The notes: generated from the letters alone by a model not told the origin. A stretch of DNA of 64,000 nt from Caulobacterales bacterium RIFCSPHIGHO2_01_FULL_70_19 (GCA_001794825.1 MGLK01000026.1:19619-83618), one strand, 5' to 3'. Positions 25,290 through 46,999 are shown, counted from the stretch's first letter. A program made the numbers and translations.

Positions 25290-25296
25290 TGGGTCC

Positions 25297-28731: not shown

Positions 28732-29109
28732 GACCCGAGCCTTGCCTAAAGGGTGGGAGCGAGAAGGCAAGGGGAGGCCTGGAGGCCGGCGCGGGCGACA
28801 CACGATCGGCCGCGATTGCGGCCGGATCGTCGGCGTTGGCGTTTGCTGACCGGACCGGTTATGGCGGTATGGCGGGGAGTGGAGCCGAGGCTCGCCTTCG
28901 ATCGCTCGCGCGTCACGCGGGTCGGATCCGGAAGGGCGAGCTGTTCTGGCTTTCGACGGCGCAGCAGGCGACCTCGCCGCCTGGCCTGGAAGGTTGGACC
29001 AAGCTTGGCCGGGCCGGTCCCAGGTGAGGTGCTGTCCACACGACTGTCAGGGTCGTCCTGCGGCGCTCGTTTGATCGAAAGTCGATTGCCGCGACGCGAA
29101 CCCTGCTCC

Positions 29110-31202: not shown

Positions 31203-33448
31203 CAGTCGGTTCCGGCCGGTAGAGGGAGACGAATCTGGACGCAGGTGGCGAACTCGGGCGGCGGCGGCACGACGTTGGCCGTCCCTCCGAACGCGGCCGC
31301 GCCGCGGCGAACCAGCGCCAGGCCGAGCCCCATGCCCGATCCAAGCGGGTCCTGACTGGAGTCCGTGGTGGTGAACAGGGGATCGAACACCCGTTCCTTG
31401 AGCAGGTTGGGAATGCCGATTCCGGTGTCCGCGACTTCCAGCACGTGGTGGCGGCCATCGTTCCAGGCGCGGAAGGTGATCCGTCGTGGGCCGTCGCCCG
31501 ACTTCGCCGTCACGGCCTTCAGGGCGTTAGTGTACAGGTTGAGCGCCAACCCGTTGTACAGCGAGGCGGGCACCAGGGGCGAGAGAAGGTCCGAGTCGGC
31601 CTCGATCTCCAGCGAGATGCCCCGGGTGTCTGCATAGCTGCCAAACACACGCGCGACCTGCTGCAGACGAGGCCGGACCTTGTACGGCTTGTTCGGCGTG
31701 ACGCGCGACCCCCGGATATAGCCTTGGGAGTAGGTGACGAACTCCTCGAGCTTGGCGATATGCCCAGCGAAGGCGTCGGCCGTCTCGGCGAAGGTCTCAT
31801 CCTTTCGCGCGAGCTCGAGCAGTTTGCGCTGCGTGTCCTTCAGCTCATGCAAGGCAATGCCGAACTCGTGGGTCATGAACCCGGCGACGACGCCGAGGAG
31901 GCTCATCACTTCAAGCTGACGAACGCGCTCCTGGGCGCTCTCATCCTGCTCCGTCGCCCGGCGTTCGGTCTGCGCCAGCGCCGAAACGATGCGATTCTTC
32001 TCGTGTTCCGGGATCGTGGAACTGGCCTCGATGGCCTCGATCGCCTCGCGGGTCTCGGTTCGAAGCGCCTTCAGCTTCTCCTTGCGCTCAGCCTCTTCTT
32101 CGTCCCGCTGGATGGCGCGGTCGGCATAGGCGATCAGCTCGGCGGCGCCGCGAACGATGTCCTGCAGCTGGGCGAAGGCGAGGTTCTCGACGAAGCCTTC
32201 CCGGTCGGCCGAAGCGACCAGGCCCTCCGTCTCGTCCTGCTCAAGGCTGCGCCGGCCCGCCACCTGCACGACCCCCACCACCTGCGTCTGCTGGGGCAGG
32301 CGCAGCATGTAGTTCTCGGACGTCGAGCTGCGAACGGCCGCGTCCATGGGGTAGTGCTTGAGCGCGATGGTGGAACGGGGATCCCGGTAGTTCCGCCCGC
32401 TGTCAGCGGACAGGCGGAGCCAGTCGTCACCCGCCGCTCCATAAGGATAGACCCGGAAAGCCCGATCGAAGACCGCGACGCCAGAGTTGTCGACGATCCA
32501 GCGGCGCGCGCGCGGGCCGTCGACGCCGAGGCCCCTGAAGACGCCCTTGCGGTAAGGGAGAAAGCGCAGATCGGCCCAAGCCCGGCCGATCTCGTTGGCG
32601 TAGGTGTCCGTGACCTCGAGATAGGGCGCCTCATCGCCTTGGCGATACACAGTAATCGTAAGACGGTCGCCTGCGAGGTCGACCACGGCCTTCAGCGCGT
32701 ACGCCTCCAGGATTTCGGCGGCGACATCCCCTTTGGCGGCATCGTCCTTGTCGGCCGGGCGAATCTTGAGAACGAAACCAGGATCCTGCTCGGCGCCCGT
32801 GTCGCGCTCTTCATCCCTCAGGGGCGCGCCGTCCAGCAGGGTTCGCAAGGGAGTGAGCACGCCGATCGACCCAGTGCGAACCCGCTGCATGTTGATGAGG
32901 TCGACGCCGGCCCGAAGCTTGCTGACCGTCAAGGTGACGCCGGTCTGCGCTTCCTCGTGCAGGCGCTCGAGGGTGTAGGGGACGCGCACGTCTCCAAGCT
33001 CCTCGATCCGGTCGATCTCTGGCCAATCAAAGGTGGCTGTGAGTCGCGTCAGTCCTTTACTGTCACGGGCGACCGAGACCAGATGCAGGTGGCGGCCGAG
33101 GAAGCGCACCGCGAACCGGCCGATGCCCTTCTCCCCCGTGATCGCGCGGCCATAGCGAGGGCTGCGGCCCTCAGCCTCCTTGGCGCTGGTTCCGATTCTC
33201 ATCCACCCGTTGATAAACTGGTCGAGCGTCATGCCCAGACCGGTGTCCTGGACGACCAGCTTCCCGTCCGCCAGGGTGACGACGCAATCTTGCGAGTCTG
33301 CGTCGTAGGCGTTCTTGATGAGCTCGATCAGCGCGACTTCGGGCTGTTTGACGAGGCGCTCGCCGAGCTCGCGCAAGATGCGGCTCTCGATGGTGAAGGC
33401 CAACTCGCCTTTACCGACTACGTCCGGCGGAAGGGCGGGCTCGGTCAC
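31202..33448 (-). CDS. Dual GHKL protein: N-terminal MORC/Hsp90/MutL-type ATPase head fused to a C-terminal histidine-kinase core
   Basis: N-terminus: N-box 'ELIKNAYDAD' (33305-33325), G1 'QDTGLGM', G2 'GEKGIGRFA'. Central coiled coil. H-box 'FMTHEFGIALHEL' (His codon 31868-31870). C-terminal N-box 'LYTNALKAV', G1 'VADTGIGIP', F 'FDPLFTT', G2 'GSGMGLGLALV'. GTG 33446-33448 overlaps the MTase TGA. Confidence 0.8.
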   Translation of the reverse strand: MTEPALPPDVVGKGELAFTIESRILRELGERLVKQPEVALIELIKNAYDADSQDCVVTLADGKLVVQDTGLGMTLDQFINGWMRIGTSAKEAEGRSPRYGRAITGEKGIGRFAVRFLGRHLHLVSVARDSKGLTRLTATFDWPEIDRIEELGDVRVPYTLERLHEEAQTGVTLTVSKLRAGVDLINMQRVRTGSIGVLTPLRTLLDGAPLRDEERDTGAEQDPGFVLKIRPADKDDAAKGDVAAEILEAYALKAVVDLAGDRLTITVYRQGDEAPYLEVTDTYANEIGRAWADLRFLPYRKGVFRGLGVDGPRARRWIVDNSGVAVFDRAFRVYPYGAAGDDWLRLSADSGRNYRDPRSTIALKHYPMDAAVRSSTSENYMLRLPQQTQVVGVVQVAGRRSLEQDETEGLVASADREGFVENLAFAQLQDIVRGAAELIAYADRAIQRDEEEAERKEKLKALRTETREAIEAIEASSTIPEHEKNRIVSALAQTERRATEQDESAQERVRQLEVMSLLGVVAGFMTHEFGIALHELKDTQRKLLELARKDETFAETADAFAGHIAKLEEFVTYSQGYIRGSRVTPNKPYKVRPRLQQVARVFGSYADTRGISLEIEADSDLLSPLVPASLYNGLALNLYTNALKAVTAKSGDGPRRITFRAWNDGRHHVLEVADTGIGIPNLLKERVFDPLFTTTDSSQDPLGSGMGLGLALVRRGAAAFGGTANVVPPPPEFATCVQIRLPLPAGTD

Positions 33449-34824
33449 GAGGCAACCGCCGGCGAGAACAGTTCGCGAAGCAGCATGTTCAGCTGATTGA
33501 TCTCGATCTTCCGCAGACCGTTGCTGTGCGCGACGATGCGCCCGGCCAGGTCCATCGTCGCCGCTGTCGAGGCCAGTCTCGCCTTGCTCGCCTCGTCGAT
33601 ATTGTAGAGGCCGCAGACGCCGCCGACGGCCTTGGCGCCGATGATGTTGTTCACCGCCTTGGGAAAGCGCCCGCGGAAGCTCTGCGACATCAGCATGTCG
33701 GGCGTCGGCGGCATGACGAACCGCCACCAGACCTCCCGGCCGTTGCAGGTTGCGGTCTTTCGCTCTTCGATGGGGGTGCTCTCCAGGTACAGGAGGAGCT
33801 CCCGGCTCGCCTCTACATCCGTCCGGATCAGCCAACACTTGTGGCCGGGGTCGCGATAGTGGGCGTTGAAGGTCTGCCGATCGAGGACGGCGACATCGTT
33901 CGGCAGGTGTCGGAGGGTGGTGACGCAAGGAACGACGTCGCGGTCCACCCGCAGTCCCCCGTGCACCCGCTCCCCCTCGGTCAGGGTCAGGATTTTCTGC
34001 GTGCCGGGACTGAGACCGCGCACAGCGCGAGCTTCGCCGGCCTTTACATCGGCGCGGCGCCGGTAGCCGATCACGCCGCCTTCTCCGCCGGTAGGCGAGG
34101 GCAGGGGGGTATAGGCGCCGTCGGCGGTCTCTTCGAAGTAACGCCAGCGCCCATCCGTCCCGGTCTTGTCGATCAGGGTGATGCTCGCCGTAGTCAGGAC
34201 CGCGTCAAAGGTGCTGTCGACCAGACGGTAGACATCCACGCGCCAACCCTTGCCCTTGATGTAGTCCCGAAGCGCCTTCGCCGAGGGGCGAGAAACCCAT
34301 TCGAACGGGACCACCAGCGCGCACAGACCGTCCGGCTTGGTGCTGGCCAACGCCAGGAAGAAGAAATATTGCCAGGCGTTCGCCAGCCCGGACAGGCGCA
34401 CGCCCGTGCGCTCCTCGATCACCTTGCTGGCCGATCGCCGCCATCCGTCGGGCAGGTGCTGGTTGCGCACGAACGGCGGGTTACCGATGCACACGTCGGC
34501 CTGCATGCGGTCGGCCGAAAAGGCGCACTGGTCCAGAAGGTCTGCATTGTCTGGTAAGTCAGCGTCCCGGATCCGGGTCTTGTCCACCTCGAAGCCGATG
34601 TATTGATCGTACCGGCCGCAGCGGGCGAAACGTCCATCGCCGGCTCCGAAGTCCACCACCATGCCGACGTGTTCGCGCAGCTGGTGCACATGGTCCCAGG
34701 TCGCCCTCACCAGCTTGGGAGGAGTGTCGACCTGGCAAATGTTGAGGTAGAGCGCGATCGTCCGCTCGCAGCCCCATTCGGGCGCGAGTCGAGACGCCAC
34801 GGTCGTTTCGGCAGCCCCCTGCAC
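33445..34824 (-). CDS. N6-adenine DNA methyltransferase (gamma-class, Eco57I/TaqI-like) with large C-terminal target-recognition region
   Basis: Motif I 'VVDFGAGDGRF' (~34632-34661) precedes motif IV 'IGNPPFV' (NPPF codons 34471-34482). About 250 aa of C-terminal region with no recognised domain. Start codon (GTG 34824) uncertain. Confidence 0.8.
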   Translation of the reverse strand: MQGAAETTVASRLAPEWGCERTIALYLNICQVDTPPKLVRATWDHVHQLREHVGMVVDFGAGDGRFARCGRYDQYIGFEVDKTRIRDADLPDNADLLDQCAFSADRMQADVCIGNPPFVRNQHLPDGWRRSASKVIEERTGVRLSGLANAWQYFFFLALASTKPDGLCALVVPFEWVSRPSAKALRDYIKGKGWRVDVYRLVDSTFDAVLTTASITLIDKTGTDGRWRYFEETADGAYTPLPSPTGGEGGVIGYRRRADVKAGEARAVRGLSPGTQKILTLTEGERVHGGLRVDRDVVPCVTTLRHLPNDVAVLDRQTFNAHYRDPGHKCWLIRTDVEASRELLLYLESTPIEERKTATCNGREVWWRFVMPPTPDMLMSQSFRGRFPKAVNNIIGAKAVGGVCGLYNIDEASKARLASTAATMDLAGRIVAHSNGLRKIEINQLNMLLRELFSPAVAS

Positions 34825-36420: not shown

Positions 36421-37002
36421 CTACTTGGCGCCAGCCGTCGCCCGGTTCCGGGCCAAAGCCCGGTAAAGGGTGCTGCGTGAGACGCCCAAAGACGAGGCGA
36501 TTGCCTCCATCGTCTGATCCGGGTGGCTCAGGAGGAGCCGCGCCTGTGCGATCTGTCGCTCGCTGAGCGCCCGCTTGCGGCCACCCCTTCTCCCGCGCGC
36601 CCGTGCAGCCGCCAGGCCGGCCATGGTCCGCTCCCGAATGAGATCCCGCTCCATCTCGGCAAGCGCTGCCATCATGTGGAAGAAGAATCGGCCGGCGGGC
36701 GTCGTCGTATCGATGCCGTCCGTGAGGCTGCGGAAGCCGACCCCTCGACCTCTCAGTTCAGCGACCAGCTCCACCAGCTGGCGGACGGTTCGGCCGAGGC
36801 GGTCCAGCTTCCATACGGTGAGCGTATCGCCCTCACGCAAGTAGCTCAGGGCTTCCCTCAAGCCAGGGCGCTCGACCTGCGCACCCGAGGTGGCATCGGC
36901 GAAGATCTGGCTGCAGCCGGCGGCCCTCAGAGCGTCGGTCTGCAGATCAACGTTCTGATCCGCTGTCGAAACGCGGGCGTAGCCAACCATCATGTCGCAC
37001 AA
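36421..37002 (-). CDS. Serine recombinase (resolvase/invertase family)
   Basis: 'VGYARVSTADQNVDLQ' with the catalytic Ser, 'VWKLDRLGR', C-terminal HTH 'IASSLGVSRSTLYRAL'. The real start is probably one of the internal Met codons (MMVGYARVS). Confidence 0.92.
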   Translation of the reverse strand: MCDMMVGYARVSTADQNVDLQTDALRAAGCSQIFADATSGAQVERPGLREALSYLREGDTLTVWKLDRLGRTVRQLVELVAELRGRGVGFRSLTDGIDTTTPAGRFFFHMMAALAEMERDLIRERTMAGLAAARARGRRGGRKRALSERQIAQARLLLSHPDQTMEAIASSLGVSRSTLYRALARNRATAGAK

Positions 37003-37317: not shown

Positions 37318-39399
37318 CTAGGAGGCCTTGGCGACCTCAACCAATCTGCCTCCTTCCAGCTTAAGCACTCGATCTGCAGCCTCAATCAACCTAGGCCGAT
37401 GGGCGACGACGATTCGCGTAATTTTTAATCCCTTTACGAAATCGCAGATCAGCGCCTCGTTCTCGCTGTCCAAGTTCGCGGTTCCTTCGTCCAGGACGAG
37501 GATGGCCGGATCGCGGTATATGGCACGAGCCAGGATCACACGCTGAAGCTGTCCACCCGATAGACTGGTGCCCATGTCGCCAACGCGAGTCCAGTAGCCC
37601 ATCGGCATTTCCTCAATCTCGTCGGCGATCTTGGCCGCCGCGGCAGCCCGCTTCACACGGTCTAAATCAAGCTCAAGAGGAAAACCCGCGATATTCTCGG
37701 CGACGGGACCGGCGAGCAGCTGATCATTCTGGGCCACATAGCCGATGTGCCTTCGGACGGCGGAGCGAGTGTCTGGAGCCAATTCGCGTCCGTCGATCCG
37801 GATACGTCCGCTGGACGGCTCCAGAAGACCAAGCAGCAATTTGACCAACGTCGTCTTGCCTGCGCCGGAGGCTCCAACGATCGCGACGAACTCGCCTTGC
37901 GATATGACGAGGTCTAGGTCACGAAGCACCAACGGAAGTCCAGCGCCGTAGGCATAGGTCACGCCCTGCAGTTCGATCGCACCACGTACGCATATGTTTG
38001 CGCCTGCTACCGTCTCCGGCGGTTCCGACAGAATGTCCTTCAGACGCTCGAGATGGACGTCCAGCAGCCGGAACTGGACCAGTTGCAAGTTGAGGGCGTT
38101 TGCGCGCTCCGCGAATATCTGCCGATACGCCAAAAAGGCGACCAGCATCCCGATTGAGAGGCCGGATCCCGACAGTACCGACCTCGCGCCCAGGTACAGG
38201 ATGATCACCCCCTGCAGCCCCTGCAGGCCGACCTGCACCGCCGCGTTGATCGACTGCCATTTGGAGGCAAGCAGACCTGCGTTGAGCGCTCGGATGAGGA
38301 GGTTCTGCCACTGAGAATCTCGTGTGGTCTCCAGTCCGAGGACCTTGATGAGCGTGGCTCCCCTCACTGATTCTATGAGGTGGTTCTGCTCCTGAGCAGA
38401 CTCTACGACCTGTTCGGCGATTTGCCTGCGCACACGGGGGTAGATGAGCATCGTGACGCCAGCGGAGACGGCGGCGAACAGGGCCGCAATCAGAGCCAGC
38501 GGGGGCGAGTACAGCGTCATTATTGCCAACGCGCCGAGCGCCGTCAGCAGATCCAGCCCTGCGGTCAGCACGCCCTTGGTCAGAACCTCCTGCACGCTTC
38601 GAACGGAGTTCACCCGTGACAGGACATCCCCGACGGCTCTGACCTGAAAATAAGCCATCGGCAGGCGAATGAGCCGATGAACGACGTTACTGAGCAGTCG
38701 GAAGTTAAGGCCGGCTCCGACGATGTTGAGCGTCCAAGCTCGGAGGCCGTCGAGAAGGGCGTGGGTGACAACGATCACCCCGAAGGCCACGGCCAGCGGC
38801 AGCAGGATGTCTGCGTCCTCACCACTGATCGCGCGATCGAGGGTCAGCTGGGTTTGAAGCGGGAGCGCAAAGAGGACCACCTGGAGCGCCAGCGACACTA
38901 TCAGGGCTTGGCCGGCGACTGCATTCAGTCCGGACAGACCGCGAAACAGATCCCGAAGGCGCAGGGGCGTACGGGCATCGATGGGCCGGAACTCGGGGGC
39001 GCGATCGAGTTCCAGCGCCACCCCTGTGAAGGCGTCCGACAGCACTTTCCGCGGAACTTTCCGAGCTCCAACGGCGGGGTCAATGATTGTCGCCTCCCTG
39101 CCGTCGAAGCCGGAGAGGACAACGAAGTGGTCAAAGCGCCAGTGAAGGACCGCGGGGAGTTGAAGAAGCTCAAGCTCTTCTATTTCCACGCGGATGGGTC
39201 TCGTTCGCAGGCCGAGCGCTTCGCCCACGTCCATCAAGGTAGCGAGCGTGGCTCCGGCTGCCGAACTGGGGAACCGCTTCTTCAGATCCGTCAGGTCGAT
39301 CTTGTGGCCCCAGTAGCCCGCAACCATGGCGAGGCAAGCCAATCCGCAATCGGCCTGCTCCGCCGCGAGGATCATCGGAACATTGCGGCGTCTGGGCAT
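37318..39399 (-). CDS. Peptidase-C39-domain ABC transporter (PCAT, bacteriocin/RiPP exporter)
   Basis: C39 catalytic 'QADCGLACLAMVAGYWG' and 'FDHFVVL'. Six-TM region. Walker A 'GASGAGKTT', signature 'LSGGQLQR', Walker B 'ILVLDEGT'. ATG 39399 lies 2 nt from the HlyD stop. Confidence 0.9.
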   Translation of the reverse strand: MPRRRNVPMILAAEQADCGLACLAMVAGYWGHKIDLTDLKKRFPSSAAGATLATLMDVGEALGLRTRPIRVEIEELELLQLPAVLHWRFDHFVVLSGFDGREATIIDPAVGARKVPRKVLSDAFTGVALELDRAPEFRPIDARTPLRLRDLFRGLSGLNAVAGQALIVSLALQVVLFALPLQTQLTLDRAISGEDADILLPLAVAFGVIVVTHALLDGLRAWTLNIVGAGLNFRLLSNVVHRLIRLPMAYFQVRAVGDVLSRVNSVRSVQEVLTKGVLTAGLDLLTALGALAIMTLYSPPLALIAALFAAVSAGVTMLIYPRVRRQIAEQVVESAQEQNHLIESVRGATLIKVLGLETTRDSQWQNLLIRALNAGLLASKWQSINAAVQVGLQGLQGVIILYLGARSVLSGSGLSIGMLVAFLAYRQIFAERANALNLQLVQFRLLDVHLERLKDILSEPPETVAGANICVRGAIELQGVTYAYGAGLPLVLRDLDLVISQGEFVAIVGASGAGKTTLVKLLLGLLEPSSGRIRIDGRELAPDTRSAVRRHIGYVAQNDQLLAGPVAENIAGFPLELDLDRVKRAAAAAKIADEIEEMPMGYWTRVGDMGTSLSGGQLQRVILARAIYRDPAILVLDEGTANLDSENEALICDFVKGLKITRIVVAHRPRLIEAADRVLKLEGGRLVEVAKAS

Positions 39400-39400
39400 A

Positions 39401-40651
39401 CTAATTGAACATCCGCCTGACCGTCCTCGACAGCCAGTCCCAGAAGGACCTTCGATCCACCGTGATCCGGGCCTCCACCGGGGTTCCGGGCCGCACATCT
39501 GCGAACTCCGGCCGACGCCGTAGACTGCCTGCATCGATTTCTACGTTGACCCGGAAATAGGAGCCCTGCGGCAACGTAGAGGAAATGAGGTCCGCAGAGG
39601 GCAGGGCGGTCGCCGAAATCCCCAAGACCTTGCCCCGCACCCGGCCGAACCGTCGCTGAGGCAGGGTGTCGAACCCAACCGTTGCCGGTTGTCCGGCGGC
39701 GATCAACCCGACGTCGGAGGCGGGCATGAGGAGCTCGGCGACGGCTTTGCCGGGCCCCGCAATGAAACCTATGGCCCCGCCGGAATTCAAATGCTGGGAT
39801 CCGACGTTGGGGACCAGCGTGAGGACGCCCGCCCTCGGAGCCGACACGAGATACCGTCCATCAGCTTGGAGCTGAGCGAGCTGTCCACCCAACCGGGCGC
39901 GCGTTTCCGTCGCCGTGGCCGAGGCCGCCTGCCTTTCGACCTCCGATCGCGCCCCTGATTCTTCCTGCTCGGCGATCTGACGCCGCAGCCCTTCCGCGGC
40001 GGCCGACAATGCTAGGTGTTCGGACTTCAAACTAAGCAACTGATCCTGCCGACGGAGCAGCTCGGACCGTGTGAGATATCCCCGCGCGGCGATCTCCTCG
40101 GCGTTTCGGGCCTGTTCTTCGGCAAGGGTGATGCGTCCGTTCATCAAGCCGATCTGGCTCTCCACCTGACTGAGTTCCTGCCTGAGACTCACGGCATTGC
40201 GCTTGGCGATCCGGGATGAGAGGCTAAGTTGATCGGCCCGGAGGTCAGCGGCCAAGGCCGCCGCCTCAAGCTCTTCGCGCGCCGCGTTTTCGCGCACATT
40301 CCAAGGATTGTTGGACCCAGAGTTGTCGGCCAATGCGATGGAGGCGATCGGCTGGCCGGCGAAAACGTGCGAGCCGTCTTCGACGTGTAGCTCACGAACA
40401 AGCCCGCCACGATCGGCAACGACCCGGACGATGCCGCCTTGGGGGGTGAGTATTCCCCGGCCCGAGACAGTGGAAGGAAAGCGGATGAAGGAGCAGGTCA
40501 GGGCTGCCGTAAAGACAAGGCCGGTCAGAACGAGGCTAAGCCGGGCTGTTAGAGGGGGGAGGGCGAGAAAAACGGCGCCTTCCCCACGACGGCTGATGCC
40601 GAGCAGGGCTTCCGAACGAAAGAGGCTGTTGTCGTCCTGCGGGTCTGCCAT
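39401..40651 (-). CDS. HlyD-family membrane fusion protein (CvaA/LcnD-like secretion accessory protein)
   Basis: 'LFRSEAL' N-terminus, single TM, barrel-sandwich 'VVADRGGLVRELHVEDGSHVFAGQPIA', long coiled coil. Confidence 0.88.
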   Translation of the reverse strand: MADPQDDNSLFRSEALLGISRRGEGAVFLALPPLTARLSLVLTGLVFTAALTCSFIRFPSTVSGRGILTPQGGIVRVVADRGGLVRELHVEDGSHVFAGQPIASIALADNSGSNNPWNVRENAAREELEAAALAADLRADQLSLSSRIAKRNAVSLRQELSQVESQIGLMNGRITLAEEQARNAEEIAARGYLTRSELLRRQDQLLSLKSEHLALSAAAEGLRRQIAEQEESGARSEVERQAASATATETRARLGGQLAQLQADGRYLVSAPRAGVLTLVPNVGSQHLNSGGAIGFIAGPGKAVAELLMPASDVGLIAAGQPATVGFDTLPQRRFGRVRGKVLGISATALPSADLISSTLPQGSYFRVNVEIDAGSLRRRPEFADVRPGTPVEARITVDRRSFWDWLSRTVRRMFN

Positions 40652-40660
40652 GCGCTACGG

Positions 40661-41791
40661 TTAAGCCGCAGACGCGCGTTCGTCCAAAACGTTCATAGCG
40701 GCAGACGGTATAGGGCCGAGCGCTTTCATGAACGCCGATTTGGGCAAAGAATCGAAACGGCTCCGAAGGGCTTTGGCCGACAGTTCTGCGGAACAGGTGC
40801 GGGGATCGAAGGTGAATTGGTCGTCCTTGGACGCCAGGTAGCGCGCGAAGGGCTCCAGAACCATGGTGTCCTCGCTGTGGAGCTCCTGCCAGATGAACTG
40901 CCCGGCTTCGTTCACCTCGAAAAAGACCCATTCGCCCTCCCGGCTCATCGCGAGGTCGAACGTCCCGAACCGGATGTCCAGCAGAGACATGATCTGCTTC
41001 AACTTCGTAAGAAGCCAGTCTTCGACGCTAAACGCTTGGAGGGTATTCAGGTAGGAGAGGTTCTGTCGCCAATCGCTGGCTAGGTCGGGGTCCTCCGGCA
41101 CCAGGATCTTGGACGCTGCGACATAGTTTCCGAAGATCGTAATGCGGACCTCGAAGGCCTTTGAAATATACTCTTGGTAGATTGTCGGCGACAGTTCGAC
41201 CGCGTCCTGCGGAAGTTCCTCGGGCGCCCGAATGACAGTCGTAAAGGCTGATATAATGCCCTCTTCCGTCTTCCAGTTGGCGTTGAAGTGGGTTTTCGTG
41301 CAGATTGCCTTTCTCGCCGCCAGAAAAGCTAGAACCTCCTCGTGATCATTACCGATCAAAGTGTCGGGGACACGCAGGCCGACCGCTTTTGCCGCTCGTA
41401 GTTGTGCGAACTTGTCGCCGCCACGAAGAATGCCCCGCGCCGGATTGACGGCGAATCCATCTTCCGAAAGCAAGGAGACGCTACGCGCGAAAGCGAATGC
41501 GCTTCCCTCGAGGAATGGCAGATCGGCCGGATGATATGAGCGCGGCTCAAAAGGGTGGGTGAGCCGCCGACGGTTCCACTGCGTGTCGATAGAGTCCAGC
41601 GGCAAGCGCTCATGCTGCGACCGGACTTGGAGCCACTCGCTCTCCGCGTCCGTGGCAAGGGAGAACCCCCCGTCTCTGAGGATAGGATCGACTACGATGA
41701 GGTGGCTCTCATGCCCCGTCGCGGTCAGCACGGCGTCGACATAGACCGCATGAGAATCCCGAGGTTCCGTAACCGTCAAGATGGTAGTCAT
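40661..41791 (-). CDS. ATP-grasp ligase of the RimK/MdnC-MvdD type (graspetide macrocyclase candidate)
   Basis: 'IYQEYISKAFEVRITIFGNYVAAS' and Mg/ATP motif 'FGTFDLAMSREGEWVFFEVNEAGQFIW' (compare E-I-N-P-x-G-Q-W of microviridin ligases). ATG 41791 overlaps the upstream TGA. Confidence 0.8.
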   Translation of the reverse strand: MTTILTVTEPRDSHAVYVDAVLTATGHESHLIVVDPILRDGGFSLATDAESEWLQVRSQHERLPLDSIDTQWNRRRLTHPFEPRSYHPADLPFLEGSAFAFARSVSLLSEDGFAVNPARGILRGGDKFAQLRAAKAVGLRVPDTLIGNDHEEVLAFLAARKAICTKTHFNANWKTEEGIISAFTTVIRAPEELPQDAVELSPTIYQEYISKAFEVRITIFGNYVAASKILVPEDPDLASDWRQNLSYLNTLQAFSVEDWLLTKLKQIMSLLDIRFGTFDLAMSREGEWVFFEVNEAGQFIWQELHSEDTMVLEPFARYLASKDDQFTFDPRTCSAELSAKALRSRFDSLPKSAFMKALGPIPSAAMNVLDERASAA

Positions 41792-42489
41792 GGGCGCGTT
41801 CCTGAGGCGGATTGATCTCGAGCGCAAAGCTGGTCCAGGAGAGGAATGCTCTCTGTGAGCGAGATGTCCATGCCGATCGCCTTCCGTCGCCCGTCCGCCG
41901 CCGAAATCGAGTCGACGGTCCCTCGATCAAAACGCCCATCGGCGCACACGCGATTGGTGCCATATGGTTGCGGCGTCCCCCGTGCCAACGCGATCCGATC
42001 CGCCGTCCGCGCGTAGTGATCCGGGTCAAGAGATCGCCGCGTCACGGCATCTCGCATGCCGCTAAGAACTCCTGCACGTAGAGCCGTCCCGTCAAGGTCA
42101 TCCCGATCAGGCACGTGTTGAAGAAGCAGCCACAAAGCCCGCTCGCCATCGGATCCAAGTCTCGGCCAACCGCCAGTCGCAACTATCGCCGCGACCCGAC
42201 GTGAGTTGGCGTCAATGATCTCCCGGCGGATCGTGCGCGTGCAGTCATCGGTGTTGGAGGGAGGTGGTTGTCTGCCCCAGCAGTCCGGCGGCACAGCCGT
42301 CAGCGAAAGCGCTGCTTGATCTGCGGCAGCCCGAAGCACGAGCTCCGAAGCCAGACAGGAGGTGTCAGAAATTTCACAAGCAAGATTGGTCGCGGCTTCC
42401 AGAGACGGCGGCCCGTCTCCGAAGGGGGTTACCGCCGGAGCCTGTTGGAGAAGCAAAGCCAGCAATAGGAAGTGGGCGAAGCTGTGCAT
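41788..42489 (-). CDS. Secreted hypothetical protein (first gene of the RiPP operon; immunity or accessory candidate)
   Basis: 233 aa from ATG 42489 with signal-like 'MHSFAHFLLLALLLQQAPA'. The rest of track ORF 41788..42783 is read-through. Confidence 0.55.
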   Translation of the reverse strand: MHSFAHFLLLALLLQQAPAVTPFGDGPPSLEAATNLACEISDTSCLASELVLRAAADQAALSLTAVPPDCWGRQPPPSNTDDCTRTIRREIIDANSRRVAAIVATGGWPRLGSDGERALWLLLQHVPDRDDLDGTALRAGVLSGMRDAVTRRSLDPDHYARTADRIALARGTPQPYGTNRVCADGRFDRGTVDSISAADGRRKAIGMDISLTESIPLLDQLCARDQSASGTRP

Positions 42490-42613
42490 ATCTGAACATT
42501 CGCATCGGGCAGGTTGTGACGCAATGCGCAGCCAAACACAGGGTTGTGAAGTGACGGATACAACCTTCGCGGAAATGATGGATCGCTGTTTCAGCAAGCA
42601 ATAGGAGGTTGAA

Positions 42614-42799
42614 GTGACTACAAGGCCCCTTGCTCGAGTACACGCTGTCGGCCGAACCCTTTCGCGAGAGGATGCGGCCAAGATCGGCGGCGGTGGAGAT
42701 GGCGGTGGCGATACGCTGTGCGTTTCACCCACCGAGATCACCCACGGTGATCCGCCCGAAACCATCCCCGACGAGAAGATCATCCGAGACGCTCAGTAG
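42614..42799 (+). CDS. Candidate RiPP precursor peptide with double-glycine leader (graspetide-type core)
   Basis: AGGAGG 5 nt upstream of GTG 42614. 61 aa 'MTTRPLARVHAVGRTLSREDAAKIGGGGDGGGDTLCVSPTEITHGDPPETIPDEKIIRDAQ'. 'LSREDAAKIGGG' fits the L-S-x-x-E/D-x-x-x-I-x-G-G leader. A strong terminator follows immediately. Divergent from the ATP-grasp/PCAT operon. Confidence 0.7.
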   Translation: MTTRPLARVHAVGRTLSREDAAKIGGGGDGGGDTLCVSPTEITHGDPPETIPDEKIIRDAQ

Positions 42800-42801
42800 C
42801 G

Positions 42802-42837
42802 GAAAGGCCCGGCGAAGCCGGGCCTTTCTATTTGTAT
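42802..42837 (+). terminator. Rho-independent terminator after the precursor peptide gene
   Basis: GAAAGGCCCGGC-gaag-GCCGGGCCTTTC perfect hairpin followed by the T-rich 'TATTTGTAT'. Confidence 0.85.
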
Positions 42838-43085: not shown

Positions 43086-43948
43086 GGGCCAATCCACATT
43101 CAGGGATTCACGCGAGCTATGATGCGTGATTCATAGGTCTCCGCATTGGCGGAGGTCGGGATGGGTGTGAAGCGTTACGAGCTGACGGACGGACAGTGGG
43201 AGCGGATCGCTCCGCTGTTGCCGGGCAAGCCGACGGACCCCGGCCGGACAGGGTCGGACAACCGGCAGTTCGTGAACGGGGTGCTCTGGGTGCTGAGGTC
43301 AGGCGCCCACTGGCGCGATCTGCCGGAGCGCTACGGCAAGTGGAAGACGGCGCATACCCGCTTCAGCCGCTGGGCGCGAAAGGGCGTCTGGGAGCAGGTC
43401 TTCGACGAGCTGACCCGCGACCGGGACAACGCCTATCTGATGCTGGATTCGACGCTGGTGCGGGCGCATCAGCAGGCGACGGCGGGTCGGGGTTCCGGCC
43501 GAAAAAGGGGGGCCTCGACCCGGCTGTGGGGCGTTCCCGAGGTGGACTGACCACCAAGATCCACATGGCCTGCGACGGTCAGGGCCGACCCGTCCGCTTC
43601 CTGCTCGCGCCGGGCCAGGCCAGCGACGTCCAGGCCGCACCGGCCCTGCTGGAGGGCTTCCGCCCCGCCGCCGTCCTGGCCGACCGCGCCTATGACTCCA
43701 TGGCCCTGCGAGACCGGATCGACGCCATCGGCGCCGAGGCCGTCATCCCCTCGACCCGCTCGCGCAAGACCCCCATCCCGCACGACCGCGATCTCTACCG
43801 GCTGCGCAACCGCATCGAGCGCTGCTTCGCAAAGCTCAAGCACTTCCGCCGCTTCGCCACCCGCTACGACAGGCTCGCCGTCCACTTCCTCGGCTTCATC
43901 CACCTGGCCGCCGCCATGATCTGGATGCGGTGAATGTCGATTCGTCCT
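43086..43948 (+). mobile_element. IS5-family insertion sequence (IS427-group-like), about 0.86 kb
   Basis: Imperfect terminal inverted repeats: left CTAGGGCCAATCCACATTCA (43083-) against the reverse complement of the right end, CTAGGACGAATCGACATTCA (-43950). TA/CTAG-type flanks. Two-frame DDE transposase inside. Confidence 0.85.
43146..43933 (+). CDS. IS5-family DDE transposase expressed by programmed -1 frameshift (orfA 43146..43550, orfB frame to 43933)
   Basis: orfA 'YELTDGQWERIAPLLPG...NGVLWVLRSGAHWRDLP'. orfB 'LADRAYDS...RNRIERCFAKLKHFRRFATRYD'. The frames switch by -1 at the A5G6 run GAAAAAGGGGGG (43501-43512). Confidence 0.88.
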
Positions 43949-44495: not shown

Positions 44496-46112
44496 ATGAG
44501 CGCTGTCGAACCGATCGCCGGCGGCGACCTGGAGAGCATGTCGGAGGAGCGGTTTGCGCAACTGGCTGCTCGGGCTCGCGGAATCGCCGACCTCGCGACG
44601 CGCGAGCATAGAACCGTCTGGGACGTGGAGTCGGCGGCGGATCGCGCCGGTGTCAGCCGGGCGACCGTCTACCGGGACCTGCAACGGGCTCGAGGGGAGG
44701 GGAGGACGACCATCCGCGACCTGGCGGGTCGCACGGGCGGCTTCCCCAAAGGCCGGAGCCGTCTTCACCCCCATGTCGAGGCTGTCGTCGCGGAGGCGCT
44801 GAGGGGCCATTACCTCTCGCCCAACAAGCCGCCCTTGACGGAAACGGTGAAGGTCATTGACGGCGCCTGTGAACGGCTTGGGCTGCCTGGTCCGAGATAC
44901 GCAACGGTTCGACGTCGCCTTCTGAAAATGAACCGCGCAGCGGTGCTCGGCCGTCGCGACGGGAAGAAAGCCCGTGAGGCTGCGACGGCCAGGCCCGGCA
45001 GCTATGAGATCAAGCACCCTTGGGATTGCTGGCAGATCGATCACACCAAGGCCGACGTCATCATCGTCGACAAGGAGAGTCGCAAGCCGGTCGGGCGCCC
45101 TTGGCTGACCGTCATCATCGACGTCGCCACCCGTATGGTCGTAGGCTTCTACGTATCTCTTGAGCCGCCCTCGATCTTGCGAGCTGGCGCCGCCCTCGAC
45201 CAGGCGGTTCGGCCCAAGGGGCCCTGGCTGAAGCAGTTGGGGCTCGACTATCGCTGGCCGGTCGAGGGTCTTCCCAAGCTCATCCATTCCGATCGTGCCG
45301 GCGAATTCCAGTCTCGCGCCTTCGAACGGGCGTTGGCCAATCAGGGAGTCGAAACCTTCCTCCGTCCTGCCGGGAAAGCCCATTGGGGCGGCCACATCGA
45401 GCGGATGATCGGCACGATGATGGGCAGGTGCAAGATGCTGCCCGGCGCCACTCAGGGGAATCCCAAAGCGCGCGGCGACTACGACGCCAGCAAGGGCGCT
45501 GCCCTGGATATCGACCAGCTTGAACTATGGTTTGCTCACCAAATCCTCGGGGAGTACCACAACACCGTCCATAGCTCGCTCGGCTGCACACCTCTTGAGG
45601 CCTGGGAGCGCAAGGCAGCCGGGCTCCATCCGCGCCGACCGGACGACCCGGAAAGCTTTCGGATCGATCTGTTTCCAGAAATCACGCGCACCCTGACACG
45701 CACAGGCTTGAAGGCGTTCGGGGAGGAGTATGCGTCAGAAGACACCACGCTCGCTTACGCTGAAGGTCGCACCAAGGCCCGGCTGAAGTTCGATCCCCGG
45801 AACCTGGGCTGTCTCTACCTTCAAACGGCCGGTCGATGGGTTCGCGTGCTATATCGCCTGCCGAACCATTCCGGGCGCTACCCGACGCTGTGGTTCTACA
45901 ACTACGCCCGTCGGCTCGCCAAAGTGCTTGGCGCACCCCTCGAGGGCATCATGGCGCGCGCCGCCCGCGAAAAGGCCGAGGAGCTGCTCCACGGCGAGGC
46001 TCATAGCTCCCGCATCGCCCGCCTCGCCGTTGAGCGCCTCCGACAGGCCCGCGTCGCCACGGAAGCGCCGCCGGCCCAGGATCACGATGACAGCTGGGGA
46101 GGCGCGCTTTGA
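44496..46112 (+). CDS. tniA: TniA-type DDE transposase (Mu/Tn7 TnsB-like integrase core)
   Basis: HTH 'AGVSRATVYRDLQRA'. DDE core 'WQIDHTKADVIIVD', 'LTVIIDVATRMVVG', 'IHSDRAGEFQS...GHIERMIGT'. Confidence 0.9.
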   Translation: MSAVEPIAGGDLESMSEERFAQLAARARGIADLATREHRTVWDVESAADRAGVSRATVYRDLQRARGEGRTTIRDLAGRTGGFPKGRSRLHPHVEAVVAEALRGHYLSPNKPPLTETVKVIDGACERLGLPGPRYATVRRRLLKMNRAAVLGRRDGKKAREAATARPGSYEIKHPWDCWQIDHTKADVIIVDKESRKPVGRPWLTVIIDVATRMVVGFYVSLEPPSILRAGAALDQAVRPKGPWLKQLGLDYRWPVEGLPKLIHSDRAGEFQSRAFERALANQGVETFLRPAGKAHWGGHIERMIGTMMGRCKMLPGATQGNPKARGDYDASKGAALDIDQLELWFAHQILGEYHNTVHSSLGCTPLEAWERKAAGLHPRRPDDPESFRIDLFPEITRTLTRTGLKAFGEEYASEDTTLAYAEGRTKARLKFDPRNLGCLYLQTAGRWVRVLYRLPNHSGRYPTLWFYNYARRLAKVLGAPLEGIMARAAREKAEELLHGEAHSSRIARLAVERLRQARVATEAPPAQDHDDSWGGAL

Positions 46113-46999
46113 CCGACGACATCGGCGACCCCTTCGCTCACCTGGATGACCGAGTGAAGGCCCACGCCCTGGCGACCGATGCGTCGCGCCTGGCGCTCAT
46201 CTCCAGCGATTGGTGGATCTCCTATCCGCCGGGCGAGGAGGTGATCACCCGTCTCTTCGAACTGATCGATCTGCCGCTCCGCCAAAGGCCGCCGTCGATT
46301 GTCGTTCATGCTCCGCCCAACTACGGCAAGACGGCGATCATCACCCGGTTCATGGCCCTCTATGCCGGGCGGGTCTCCCGCGATGAGGCGGATCGGGATG
46401 GGGTCGTAGTGATCCAGGCGCCGCCGACTGTGGACGAGAAGCGTCTGTACCTTGAGATCCTCAACGCGATCGGAGCCAGCGCCCCGAATACGACCACGGC
46501 CAAGCTTCGCTCCATGGTCGTCAATCAACTACGCCAGCGTCGTACGCGCTTGTTGATCATCGACGAGTTGCAGCATGCCCTGGGCCAGCGCGCCAGCGCA
46601 CAGCAGGTGGTTCTCAACACCCTGAAGTACCTGTCCAACGAACTGAGCCTGTCCATCGCGGGGTTCGGATCCCGAGAGTCGAAGGCGCTTGTCTATTCCG
46701 ACGAGCACCTCGCCCAACGCTTCGAAGTCGTAGCCCTGCCGGCCTGGGACAAGAAGCACAGCTGGGTGGTCGACGTCGTTCGTCAGCGCATCACCCTGTT
46801 TCCGTTGCGACGGCCGACTGTGATCGACCGGTCCTTCATGAACCTGCTGCTGCAGCTCTGTGGGCCGACGGGCGGGCGCATGCTGGCCATGCTGGAACGC
46901 TGCGCCCGATCGGCGATCCGTGACGGCAGCGAGCAGCTTTCCGTCGAGCTGCTGGAAGCCGTGGCGCTCAAGGGCGAGCGGCTCGAACATGGGGTTTGA
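46109..46999 (+). CDS. tniB: TniB-type AAA+ ATPase (transposition helper)
   Basis: Walker A 'HAPPNYGKTAI', Walker B 'LLIIDELQHAL'. 4-nt overlap with tniA. Confidence 0.9.
   Translation: MTDDIGDPFAHLDDRVKAHALATDASRLALISSDWWISYPPGEEVITRLFELIDLPLRQRPPSIVVHAPPNYGKTAIITRFMALYAGRVSRDEADRDGVVVIQAPPTVDEKRLYLEILNAIGASAPNTTTAKLRSMVVNQLRQRRTRLLIIDELQHALGQRASAQQVVLNTLKYLSNELSLSIAGFGSRESKALVYSDEHLAQRFEVVALPAWDKKHSWVVDVVRQRITLFPLRRPTVIDRSFMNLLLQLCGPTGGRMLAMLERCARSAIRDGSEQLSVELLEAVALKGERLEHGV

What the first reader, a model, noticed from the sequence alone, without database searches (positions are those of the whole stretch)
37318..42837. Graspetide-type RiPP gene cluster with a PCAT exporter in a high-GC alphaproteobacterium
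**What the sequence shows.** A minus-strand operon with overlapping or near-abutting junctions contains:
- a secreted 233-aa protein;
- an ATP-grasp ligase ('FFEVNEAGQFIW', MdnC/MvdD-like);
- a HlyD/CvaA-type MFP;
- an ABC exporter with an intact C39 peptidase domain (Cys in 'DCGLACL', His in 'DHFVVL').

It faces a divergently transcribed 61-aa ORF that has a consensus RBS, a double-glycine leader and its own strong terminator. The segment is visibly AT-richer than the core; one hand-counted line came to about 55% GC.

**Established knowledge.** ATP-grasp ligases of this type install side-chain ester/amide macrocycles in graspetides (microviridin-like peptides). C39-ABC transporters cleave GG leaders during export.

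**Inference.** This is an exported, macrocyclised peptide (bacteriocin or protease inhibitor), and the secreted 233-aa protein is a possible immunity or accessory factor.
Basis: partly seen in the sequence, partly recalled or inferred. Interest (0 to 1): 0.7.

Follow-up and report, generated by a model that had tools for sequence, protein, structure and literature searches.

The report
Exported graspetide peptide gene cluster
This is a real, intact gene cluster for a small ring-closed secreted peptide (a graspetide) with its own cleave-and-export pump, riding on a transposon. It is an uncharacterised member of a kind of cluster that genome-mining papers have already catalogued.

Summary

**Genes, 37318-42829**
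- Minus strand, tightly coupled: a secreted DUF6624 protein, an ATP-grasp ligase, a HlyD adaptor and a C39-peptidase ABC exporter.
- Plus strand, divergent: a 61-aa gene with an AGGAGG ribosome-binding site and a strong terminator.

**Ligase.** By sequence and predicted fold it groups with graspetide macrocyclases (MdnC, CdnC, PsnB), not RimK.

**Precursor.** The 61-aa ORF is a real gene.
- Six orthologous peptides sit at the same place in metagenomic relatives.
- One ortholog pair has 29 synonymous against 7 non-synonymous codon differences.
- It has an RPxAR leader motif, a canonical double-glycine site and a core with invariant Thr/Ser, Cys, Thr, Asp and Asp.

**Inferred product.** Two lactone rings are made on the precursor. 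The leader is cut after Gly27 and a 34-residue core is exported.

**Already published.** Makarova 2022 and Carter 2026 describe PCAT and HlyD as frequent graspetide neighbours. Carter 2026 reports DUF6624 at high frequency in graspetide groups 18, 20, 23 and 42, with unknown function.

**What is new here**
- This rare precursor subfamily.
- Evidence that DUF6624 is periplasmic, which favours immunity over cytoplasmic biosynthesis.
- Carriage next to a TniA/B/Q transposition module.

Verdict: new member of a known kind, moderate interest.

The parts
37318..39399 (-). PCAT: ABC exporter with an N-terminal C39 double-glycine peptidase domain (693 aa)
   Evidence: Pfam Peptidase_C39 1.1e-31, ABC_membrane 5e-33, ABC_tran 1e-32. 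NCBIfam NHLM_micro_ABC1 2.7e-132. PDB hits are HlyB, PCAT1 and ComA; the Cys of 'QADCGLACL' aligns with the Tyr of HlyB's inactive domain, and the His of 'DHFVVL' is kept. The start ATG lies 1 nt after the HlyD stop.
39401..40651 (-). HlyD-family membrane fusion (periplasmic adaptor) protein, 416 aa
   Evidence: Pfam HlyD_3 1.2e-11. NCBIfam type_I_hlyD 1.3e-32. A HlyD-type adaptor gene lies next to the PCAT in nearly all relative loci whose contig extends that far.
40661..41791 (-). Graspetide-type ATP-grasp macrocyclase (376 aa; 100% identical over its aligned length to NCBI 'hypothetical protein A2623_08820', Caulobacterales bacterium RIFCSPHIGHO2_01_FULL_70_19)
   Evidence: TIGR04187 1.1e-38, MvdD 1.5e-31, RimK 2e-6. 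PDB sequence hits are only MdnC, CdnC, MdnB, AMdnB and PruB. AF2 pLDDT 91; Foldseek top 32 hits are all graspetide ligases. Invariant D240-W-R242 and E292-V-N294 across 23 homologs.
41788..42489 (-). Secreted/periplasmic DUF6624 protein (233 aa), translationally coupled to the ATP-grasp gene by an ATGA overlap
   Evidence: PF20329 6.8e-6, 26.1 bits against a 27-bit cut-off; orthologs are annotated PF20329. N-terminal hydrophobic segment plus six invariant Cys. AF2 pLDDT 84, all-helical, no PDB fold match. ATGA overlap read.
42490..42613 (.). Divergent intergenic (promoter) region between the DUF6624 operon and the precursor gene; includes the AGGAGG ribosome-binding site at 42603-42608
   Evidence: Sequence read. 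Across six orthologous intergenic regions only GGA of the GGAG(G) ribosome-binding site and the TG of the start codon are invariant. No sigma-70 consensus was found in this spacer.
42614..42694 (+). Leader part of the precursor (residues 1-27): RPLAR recognition motif and double-glycine site LSREDAAKIGGG
   Evidence: Alignment of seven orthologous precursors. Leader profile search. Fits the 'Phhx(1,2)h' leader motif of PMC8939145 and the L(-12), acidic(-8), I/V(-4), G(-2), G(-1) pattern.
42695..42799 (+). Predicted core peptide (residues 28-61, GDGGGDTLCVSPTEITHGDPPETIPDEKIIRDAQ) plus the stop codon
   Evidence: Invariant T/S34, C36, T43, D54 and D59 in seven orthologs. Purifying selection: 29 synonymous against 7 non-synonymous codon differences between L006 and L093.
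42801..42829 (+). Intrinsic terminator of the precursor gene
   Evidence: 13-bp stem with 9 G-C pairs, 3-nt loop and a T-rich tail.

Best explanation
This is a functional graspetide (ATP-grasp-modified RiPP) biosynthetic gene cluster with dedicated cleave-and-export machinery, carried on a mobile element.

**Proposed pathway**
1. The 61-aa precursor is translated from its own divergent transcript.
2. Its N-terminal RPLAR(V) helix motif docks on the ATP-grasp macrocyclase.
3. The macrocyclase uses ATP to activate Asp side chains and join them to Thr side chains as omega-ester (lactone) rings.
4. The invariant pairs suggest two rings between T34/T43 and D54/D59. The topology is unknown.
5. The C39 domain of the PCAT cuts after Gly26-Gly27.
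6. The PCAT-HlyD pair, with a host TolC-type channel, exports the 34-residue core out of the cell.
7. The co-translated DUF6624 protein goes to the periplasm. Most likely it protects the producer from re-entering product (binding or hydrolysis) rather than acting in cytoplasmic biosynthesis.

**Shown here:** gene content, family assignments, catalytic residues, conservation of and selection on the precursor, and the secretion signal and Cys pattern of DUF6624.

**Inferred:** ring number and positions, the cleavage site, the bioactivity of the product (bacteriocin-like or protease inhibitor) and the role of DUF6624.
For: **Ligase is a RiPP macrocyclase**
- NCBIfam: TIGR04187 1e-38 and MvdD 1.5e-31, against RimK 2e-6.
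- PDB sequence hits are only MdnC, CdnC, MdnB, AMdnB and PruB.
- Foldseek ranks 1-32 are graspetide ligases at E 1e-24 to 4e-16. RimK starts at rank 33 with 5e-14.
- Invariant DWR and ExN motifs.

**Precursor is real**
- Orthologous 60-64-aa ORFs sit at the same position in L001-L004, L006, L007, L092 and L093; in L094 the small ORF lies beside the ligase gene but apart from the DUF6624 gene.
- 29 synonymous against 7 non-synonymous codon differences.
- Conserved ribosome-binding site.
- Invariant RP.xR, G(G/A), T/S, C, T, D and D.
- The same leader class appears beside roughly 30%-identical ligases in Lysobacter, Dyella, Xanthomonas and myxobacteria.

**Export**
- C39 domain with the catalytic Cys and His.
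- A PCAT and a HlyD-type adaptor accompany the ligase in nearly every relative locus whose contig extends far enough.

**DUF6624**
- ATGA coupling to the ligase gene.
- Signal-like N-terminus and six invariant Cys.
- 95 of 154 family representatives have a hydrophobic N-terminus.

**Literature**
- PCAT and HlyD top the list of genes most often associated with graspetide loci; leader motif Phhx(1,2)h (PMC8939145).
- DUF6624 with HlyD and NHLM-type PCAT in graspetide groups 18, 20 and 23 (PMC13097080 and its SI).
Against: - There is no chemistry: no mass data exist for any member of this subfamily, so ring formation, ring count and cleavage site are all predictions.
- The ligase scores below NCBIfam's curated cut-offs (133 bits against 350) and has no Pfam hit at E <= 0.01. 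It is a divergent member.
- The inferred rings would span 12 to 26 residues, which from my own knowledge looks larger than typical graspetide rings.
- No outer-membrane factor is encoded in the cluster.
- The invariant core Cys has no role in the standard graspetide scheme.
- The DUF6624 role rests only on localisation logic. Carter et al. instead suggest it may be a biosynthetic enzyme.
- An IS5-family element sits 350 bp from the precursor gene, so regulation may be disturbed.
Confidence: 0.8

Rival explanations
1. DUF6624 is a biosynthetic partner or tailoring enzyme, not an immunity factor. It might stabilise the ligase as MirC does for MirB, or modify the invariant Cys or the rings. The cluster would then make a graspetide with an extra, unknown modification.
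For: - Tight ATGA translational coupling to the ligase gene.
- DUF6624 is present in every locus of the window's subfamily whose contig covers that position.
- Invariant polar residues (Q124, H125, Y159, R161, D164, R165, Q174, R180, D188, R202) could form an active site.
Against: - An N-terminal signal-like segment and six invariant Cys point to an oxidising, periplasmic location, away from the ATP-dependent ligase.
- A PCAT-HlyD-TolC route would bypass the periplasm (inference from established knowledge of type I-like export).
- In sister clades the same slot holds unrelated secreted proteins with a ChaN/Tiki/Ere-like motif. That fits a replaceable protection function better than an essential partner.
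Confidence: 0.3
2. The 61-aa peptide is an ordinary unmodified double-glycine bacteriocin or signal peptide exported by the PCAT, and the ATP-grasp enzyme acts on something else.
For: - The double-glycine leader and PCAT/HlyD alone would be enough for a class II-type peptide.
- The ligase scores below curated family cut-offs.
Against: - The extreme N-terminal RPxAR motif is conserved beyond what a PCAT leader needs and matches the graspetide leader motif (PMC8939145).
- The peptide gene and the ligase gene co-occur in all relatives, including those where the exporter lies elsewhere in the locus.
- Invariant Thr and Asp pairs in an otherwise variable core.
- Ligase fold and sequence are closest to peptide macrocyclases.
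Confidence: 0.05
3. The cluster is silent or decaying transposon cargo and makes no product in this organism.
For: - It lies in a lower-GC island beside a TniA/B/Q module, a resolvase and an IS5-family element with an apparent frameshift.
- There is no outer-membrane factor gene in the cluster.
- No sigma-70 consensus was found in the divergent spacer.
Against: - All five ORFs are intact and full length relative to their homologs, and catalytic motifs are preserved.
- Coupling junctions are intact.
- The precursor family is under purifying selection.
Confidence: 0.08

Closest known systems
Graspetide BGC groups 18, 20 and 23 of the RODEO/SSN classification (Ramesh 2021; Carter et al. 2026, PMC13097080)
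   Same: Same gene set. Graspetide synthetase plus HlyD (TIGR01843), NHLM-type PCAT (TIGR03796) and DUF6624 (PF20329). In the paper's SI these are 95%, 91% and 64% of group 20 BGCs and about 100% of group 23 BGCs. The precursor has a double-glycine leader. DUF6624 has no assigned function in these groups, as here.
   Different: Group membership could not be computed because the SSN dataset is not available here. The closest ligase among 185,579 species-representative genomes is only 35% identical. The close relatives (42-47% identical) are all metagenomic contigs. This may therefore be an unnumbered sub-branch with its own core motif, [ST][IL]C...T...D...D.
Graspetide 'branch 4' loci of Makarova et al. 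2022 (PMC8939145): precursor cluster 2716 with a double-glycine peptidase and an erythromycin-esterase-like protein
   Same: ATP-grasp, PCAT, a precursor with Phhx(1,2)h and GG motifs, and an extra protein proposed as either modification or self-resistance. The window's more distant relatives (L008-L012, 33-41% identical) carry secreted 'GE(I/G)HGT.EAP' proteins of this kind.
   Different: In the window that slot is filled by DUF6624, which is unrelated in sequence. Equivalence with branch 4 was not tested directly: the accessions were not found in the supplement text.
Microviridin system (MdnA, MdnB, MdnC, MdnD, MdnE; graspetide group 1)
   Same: Same enzyme fold and chemistry class. MdnC is the best PDB sequence hit (6e-20; TM-scores normalised by target length 0.81-0.84 for MdnC chains). 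An N-terminal leader helix motif (PFFARFL in microviridin, RPLARV here) is the presumed ligase-docking element.
   Different: A single ligase rather than two. No GNAT acetyltransferase. No TxKxPSDx(E/D)(D/E) core and no conserved Lys, so no lactam is predicted. The leader is removed by a cluster-encoded C39 PCAT. The ligase has a roughly 50-residue C-terminal extension.
Thatisin (group 16) and Gra-8 (group 19) graspetides of Lysobacter
   Same: Proteobacterial graspetides. Ligases from Lysobacter and related genera are about 30% identical to the window's. Their neighbouring precursors share the leader class 'R(V/P)(L/I)xR(V/L)xA.E...V(S/A)G(G/A)'.
   Different: Different core sequences, often repeated DSGT motifs and multiple precursors per locus. 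They mostly lack DUF6624: only 6 of the 80 genome loci had a DUF6624-like ORF.

Membership tests
Graspetide (ATP-grasp-modified RiPP) biosynthetic cluster | ATP-grasp ligase of the MdnB/MdnC/PsnB macrocyclase type rather than a primary-metabolism ligase | tested here: met
   NCBIfam TIGR04187 1.1e-38, MvdD 1.5e-31, MvdC 4e-30, RimK 2e-6. PDB sequence hits are only graspetide ligases. Foldseek ranks 1-32 are graspetide ligases and RimK starts at rank 33. Caveat: the scores are below NCBIfam's curated cut-offs.
Graspetide (ATP-grasp-modified RiPP) biosynthetic cluster | Conserved nucleotide/Mg-binding and D-x-R catalytic motifs in the ligase | tested here: met
   D240-W241-R242, E292-V-N294 and K166/K211 are invariant in 23 homologs. 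DWR and ExN align with the same motifs of MdnC. PMC13097080 names the 'DFR' motif as critical.
Graspetide (ATP-grasp-modified RiPP) biosynthetic cluster | Adjacent small precursor gene with a conserved leader recognition motif (Phhx(1,2)h / PFFARFL-like) | tested here: met
   R4-P5-L6-A7-R8-V9 in the window. RP(I/L/V)(A/M)R is present in all seven orthologs. The leader profile recovers precursors beside related ligases.
Graspetide (ATP-grasp-modified RiPP) biosynthetic cluster | Conserved donor (Ser/Thr/Lys) and acceptor (Asp/Glu) residues in the core | tested here: met
   T/S34, T43, D54 and D59 are invariant in seven orthologs while the residues between them vary.
Graspetide (ATP-grasp-modified RiPP) biosynthetic cluster | Side-chain omega-ester or omega-amide macrocycles actually present in the product (-18 Da per ring) | not testable with these tools
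   Needs co-expression and mass spectrometry.
PCAT (peptidase-containing ABC transporter, AMS type) | N-terminal C39 domain with catalytic Cys and His, followed by six-helix transmembrane and nucleotide-binding domains | tested here: met
   Pfam C39, ABC_membrane and ABC_tran. The Cys of DCGLACL sits where HlyB's inactive domain has Tyr, and the His of DHFVVL is kept.
PCAT (peptidase-containing ABC transporter, AMS type) | Substrate with a double-glycine leader (hydrophobic at -4, -7 and -12, acidic at -8, G-G/A at -2 and -1) | tested here: met
   Window: L16(-12), D20(-8), I24(-4), G26-G27. Orthologs have VSGG or VSGA in the same columns. Position -7 is Ala in the window and Val, Ile or Leu in the orthologs.
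PCAT (peptidase-containing ABC transporter, AMS type) | Leader cleavage coupled to export | not testable with these tools
   Needs an in-vitro C39 assay or secretion analysis.
RODEO graspetide groups 18, 20 and 23 (DUF6624-associated) | Co-occurrence of graspetide synthetase with HlyD, NHLM-type PCAT and DUF6624 | tested here: met
   for the window. SI table of PMC13097080.
RODEO graspetide groups 18, 20 and 23 (DUF6624-associated) | Ligase falls in that group's sequence-similarity-network cluster (alignment score 70) | not tested
No group sequences were found in the stored supplements. The Ramesh 2021 paper is not held.
Microviridins (graspetide group 1) | Core motif TxKxPSDx(E/D)(D/E) (recalled from my own knowledge) with two lactones and one lactam; two ligases plus a GNAT | tested here: not met
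   The core GDGGGDTLCVSPTEITHGDPPETIPDEKIIRDAQ lacks the motif and has no conserved Lys. There is one ligase and no acetyltransferase.
DUF6624 (PF20329) | Match to the Pfam profile | tested here: met
   E 6.8e-6, but 26.1 bits against a 27-bit gathering score, so marginal for the window protein itself. The 99%-identical P0031 and the orthologs carry PF20329 in precomputed annotation. phmmer finds 1162 relatives at E <= 1e-3.

The most novel reading that the evidence does not exclude
DUF6624 is the first dedicated periplasmic self-protection protein for an exported graspetide, acting as a binder or lactone hydrolase. The invariant single Cys in the core would take part in chemistry not yet known for graspetides, such as a side-chain thioester made by the ligase, or a covalent or disulfide interaction with the six-Cys DUF6624 protein or with the target. 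That would make this transposon-borne cluster a mobile bacteriocin-plus-immunity module of a new type.
Probability: 0.15. Interest if true: 0.6.

Novelty: new member of a known kind. Interest (0 to 1): 0.35.

Why it matters
Graspetides are a growing RiPP class whose known activities, from the microviridin literature, are mainly protease inhibition. Many of the predicted groups still have no characterised member, and none of the DUF6624-associated BGCs has a characterised cyclised product.

This locus offers a compact five-gene test case:
- one ligase;
- one precursor with only two conserved donor/acceptor pairs;
- a clear cleavage site.

It could assign a function to DUF6624, which has more than 1,000 family representatives. 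It could also show whether Gram-negative graspetides exported through PCAT/HlyD act as bacteriocins with periplasmic immunity.

Its position next to a Tni transposition module and a restriction-modification-like pair suggests that such peptide weapons move as cargo of mobile elements.

It does not change any concept, because the architecture is already catalogued.

Tried and rejected
- **Plasmid megablast.** The 6.2-kb region against PLSDB plasmids gave no match, so there is no close annotated plasmid copy.
- **First precursor regex.** It was too permissive in high-GC DNA: 91 hits, mostly spurious. I replaced it with a leader profile search.
- **DUF6624 homologs.** The word-indexed search found only 2 to 8 proteins. 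The exhaustive phmmer search was needed.
- **DUF6624 structure.** PDB sequence search found nothing. Foldseek of a good model gave no hit with E <= 0.001, only generic helical repeats. No function could be drawn from the structure.
- **Transposon ends.** An inverted-repeat search over 18-52 kb returned only chance-like G+C-rich pairs. The element's boundaries are undefined.
- **Divergent spacer.** The promoter scan found no sigma-70 site there. Alignment of six orthologous spacers showed only GGA of the ribosome-binding site and the TG of the start codon as invariant. A 'GGTTGT...ACAACC' repeat in the window is not conserved across all six.
- **Literature supplements.** I searched the supplements of PMC8939145 and PMC13097080 for the MAG accession and for precursor motifs and found nothing. 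Ramesh 2021 (PMC8688276) is not held, so the group number could not be assigned.
- **Start codons rejected.** The 738-aa and 331-aa longest-ORF starts for the PCAT and DUF6624 were rejected in favour of 693 aa and 233 aa. The grounds are the junctions and the ortholog alignments. The long DUF6624 form would also overlap the precursor gene.

Full report
**1. What is in the sequence**

ORF listing, family scans and direct reading of the junctions give a four-gene minus-strand operon.

| Gene | Coordinates | Size | Key evidence |
|---|---|---|---|
| DUF6624 protein | 41788-42489 | 233 aa | PF20329 |
| ATP-grasp ligase | 40661-41791 | 376 aa | TIGR04187 1e-38 |
| HlyD-type adaptor | 39401-40651 | 416 aa | type_I_hlyD 1.3e-32 |
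| C39-peptidase ABC exporter (PCAT) | 37318-39399 | 693 aa | C39 1e-31, ABC_membrane 5e-33, ABC_tran 1e-32, NHLM_micro_ABC1 3e-132 |

- The junctions are an ATGA overlap, a 9-nt gap and a 1-nt gap. Translational coupling is therefore likely.
- A 61-aa ORF lies divergently at 42614-42799. It has a GTG start 5 nt after AGGAGG.
- It ends just before a 13-bp, 9-G-C hairpin with a T-rich tail at 42801-42829.
- GC is 59-65% per kb here against 68-74% in the outer window. The dip covers roughly 20-49 kb.
- The ligase is 100% identical over its aligned length to a 'hypothetical protein' of the MAG Caulobacterales bacterium RIFCSPHIGHO2_01_FULL_70_19.

**2. Is the ATP-grasp a RiPP macrocyclase?**

Yes, on three independent lines.
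- Profile scores favour RiPP maturase families (1e-38 to 4e-30) over RimK (2e-6) by more than 20 orders of magnitude.
- The only solved structures with detectable sequence similarity are MdnC, CdnC, MdnB, AMdnB and PruB.
- An AlphaFold model built on 23 homologs has pLDDT 91 and pTM 0.89. Its first 32 Foldseek matches are all graspetide macrocyclases, at E 1e-24 to 4e-16. RimK first appears at rank 33 with 5e-14.
- The DWR and E-x-N motifs are invariant across the family and align with those of MdnC.

Two caveats apply. The scores are below NCBIfam's curated cut-offs, and Pfam gives no hit at E <= 0.01. The enzyme is a divergent, unannotated member.

**3. Is the 61-aa ORF a real precursor?**

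Yes.
- Only 30 homologs of the ligase were found among 5.8 billion clusters.
- The contigs of the closest ones (42-47% identical) carry a 60-64-aa ORF beside the ligase gene. In all but L094 it sits just upstream of, and divergent from, the DUF6624 and ATP-grasp pair.
- The seven orthologous peptides align without difficulty:
  - N-terminal M-(T/S)-x-R-P-(I/L/V)-(A/M)-R;
  - then L/I-(T/S)-x-x-(E/D)-(V/I/L/A)-x-x-(V/I)-(S/G)-G-(G/A);
  - then a variable core with invariant (T/S)-(I/L)-C, T, D and D.
- Two orthologs (L006 and L093) differ at 29 codons synonymously and at only 7 non-synonymously. That is clear purifying selection on this reading frame.
- In the upstream spacer only GGA of the GGAG(G) ribosome-binding site and the TG of the start codon are invariant.
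- A profile of the leader also recovers small ORFs beside about 30%-identical ligases in Lysobacter, Xanthomonas, Dyella, Sphingobium, myxobacteria and Acidobacteriota. These have the 'RVLGRVLAVEE..VSGA' type of leader. The leader class is therefore shared across a large graspetide clade.
- The window's leader fits the published 'Phhx(1,2)h' motif (PMC8939145).
- It also fits the canonical double-glycine pattern: L16 at -12, D20 at -8, I24 at -4 and G26-G27.
- The predicted core is therefore residues 28-61, GDGGGDTLCVSPTEITHGDPPETIPDEKIIRDAQ.

**4. Export machinery**

- The PCAT has Cys in 'QADCGLACL' exactly where HlyB's non-catalytic C39-like domain has Tyr. It also keeps the His of 'DHFVVL'.
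- PCAT and HlyD-type adaptor genes accompany the ligase in nearly every relative locus whose contig is long enough.
- No outer-membrane factor is encoded in the cluster, so a host TolC-type channel is assumed (inference).

**5. The 233-aa protein**

- It is DUF6624. The window protein is marginal (26.1 bits against 27), but its orthologs are clearly annotated.
- Four orthologs share an N-terminal hydrophobic segment and six invariant cysteines. They also share a set of invariant polar residues: Q124, H125, Y159, R161, D164, R165, Q174, R180, D188 and R202.
- The AlphaFold model is confident (pLDDT 84) and all-helical. It has no significant match in the PDB.
- An exhaustive phmmer search finds 1162 family representatives. 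Of the 154 I inspected, 95 have a hydrophobic N-terminus.
- I infer that the protein works in the periplasm.
- ATP-grasp chemistry is cytoplasmic, and a PCAT-HlyD-TolC route would bypass the periplasm. A periplasmic protein would therefore meet the product mainly when it re-enters the cell. That favours self-protection over biosynthesis.
- In sister clades (33-41% identical ligases) the same slot holds unrelated secreted proteins with a 'GE(I/G)HGT.EAP' motif. One of them gives a weak ChaN/Tiki hit.
- These resemble the 'erythromycin-esterase-like' proteins for which Makarova et al. proposed either modification or host resistance.
- This part remains an inference. Carter et al. suggest that DUF6624 may be a biosynthetic enzyme.

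**6. Most likely mechanism**

1. The precursor is made.
2. The RPLARV leader docks on the ligase.
3. Asp side chains are activated with ATP and esterified to Thr side chains.
4. Two rings are predicted from the invariant T34, T43, D54 and D59. The topology is unknown. No conserved Lys is present, so no lactam is expected.
5. The C39 domain cuts after Gly27.
6. The 34-mer is exported.
7. DUF6624 protects the producer.

The invariant Cys36 is unexplained by the standard scheme.

**7. Comparison with what is known**

- Makarova et al. 2022 (PMC8939145) place the C39 ABC transporter and HlyD among the four protein families most often associated with graspetide ligase genes, with the transporter ranked first. 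They also describe the leader and GG motifs.
- Carter et al. 2026 (PMC13097080) report DUF6624 at high frequency in graspetide groups 18, 20, 23 and 42.
- They also report NHLM-type PCATs in groups 2, 8, 14, 16, 18, 20, 21 and 23.
- Their SI gives, for group 20, HlyD 95%, PCAT 91% and DUF6624 64%. For group 23 all three are about 100%.
- The architecture is therefore catalogued but uncharacterised. The only group 18 work concerns two oxygenases acting on a linear precursor (PMC12186529).
- I could not assign the window to a numbered group.
- The closest ligase in 185,579 species-representative genomes is only 35% identical. The subfamily is currently known only from metagenomes.

**8. Context**

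- Next to the cluster are a TniA-like transposase (44496-46112), TniB (46109-46999; 1e-47) and TniQ (46860-48020; 5e-14).
- Also present are an IS5-family transposase (43146-43933) and a serine resolvase (36421-37002).
- A relative locus, L092, has a very similar neighbourhood. It includes a 538-aa rve protein, TniB, TniQ, a resolvase and an Eco57I-like methylase plus GHKL-ATPase pair.
- The window has that pair too, at 31202-34824.
- Other relatives sit beside relaxase and coupling-protein genes, integrases or recombinases.
- The cluster family is mobile cargo.

**9. Verdict**

- It is a new, unannotated member of a known and already catalogued kind of graspetide cluster.
- Its value lies in being a compact test case for the function of DUF6624 and for the bioactivity of exported Gram-negative graspetides.
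- Interest is 0.35.

Noticed in passing
window 44496-48020 (+), with 36421-37002 (-) and 43146-43933 (+): A Tn5053/Tn402-type transposition module lies directly beside the cluster: a 538-aa rve-family TniA-like protein, TniB (PF05621, 1e-47) and TniQ (PF06527, 5e-14). A serine resolvase sits on the far side. An IS5-family DDE transposase, read as two overlapping frames (apparent frameshift), is inserted between the precursor gene and tniA. Relative locus L092 has the same Tni genes and a resolvase next to its cluster. No terminal inverted repeats could be identified.
   Followed up: partly
window 31202-34824 (-); L092 11523-13170: An Eco57I-like methyltransferase (459 aa; PADLOC MTase_II 1.5e-18) overlaps a 908-aa protein with two GHKL ATPase domains (weak PADLOC REase_II hit, 7e-9). 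The same pair flanks the graspetide cluster in L092. A restriction/defence-like module therefore seems to travel with the cluster.
   Followed up: partly
window 21991-28803 (-): A chemotaxis-like signalling block lies in the same lower-GC stretch. It has a 1168-aa CHASE3-GAF hybrid histidine kinase with three receiver domains, CheR, CheB methylesterase and a receiver-histidine kinase.
   Followed up: no
L008 6129-7004; L009 8221-9159; L010 8412-9182; L011 8115-9350: In more distant relatives (33-41% identical ligases) the DUF6624 slot is taken by secreted proteins sharing a 'GE(I/G)HGT.EAP' motif. The L009 protein gives a weak ChaN/Tiki-superfamily hit (3e-3). They resemble the erythromycin-esterase-like proteins noted in PMC8939145. 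A lactone hydrolase would make sense as graspetide immunity.
   Followed up: partly
L003 3721-4410 (-); L004 9160-9972 (+); L092 7180-7755 (-): A further conserved protein of 190-270 aa with no Pfam hit lies between the ligase and PCAT genes in three relatives. The L003 and L004 copies have an N-terminal hydrophobic segment, and all three share a C-terminus of the type '...V.(I/V).L(F/Y)SS..G.LP.LR'. It is absent from the window.
   Followed up: no
window 42719-42721 (Cys36 of the precursor): A single Cys is invariant in the core of all seven orthologous precursors, within (T/S)-(I/L)-C. It has no role in standard graspetide chemistry. The co-encoded DUF6624 protein has six invariant Cys.
   Followed up: partly
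window 40661-40840 (C-terminal ~50 residues of the ATP-grasp protein): The ligase family has a conserved C-terminal extension of about 50 residues ('...F.WD....S.ELSA...DER') that extends past the region aligned to MdnC, CdnC and the other solved graspetide ligases. It is modelled with lower confidence (pLDDT 61-85).
   Followed up: no
L010 10722-12078; L009 4622-6022; L011 12558-14098: Several relative loci hold a second precursor-plus-ATP-grasp pair with a different core. Examples are 'SRILSRR...AGSGG...DDCTSDM' in L010 and a repeat-rich 189-aa 'LLE(I/L)(V/E)TKT' protein next to a RimK/MvdD-like ligase in L011. Multiple graspetide systems therefore cluster on the same mobile DNA.
   Followed up: no
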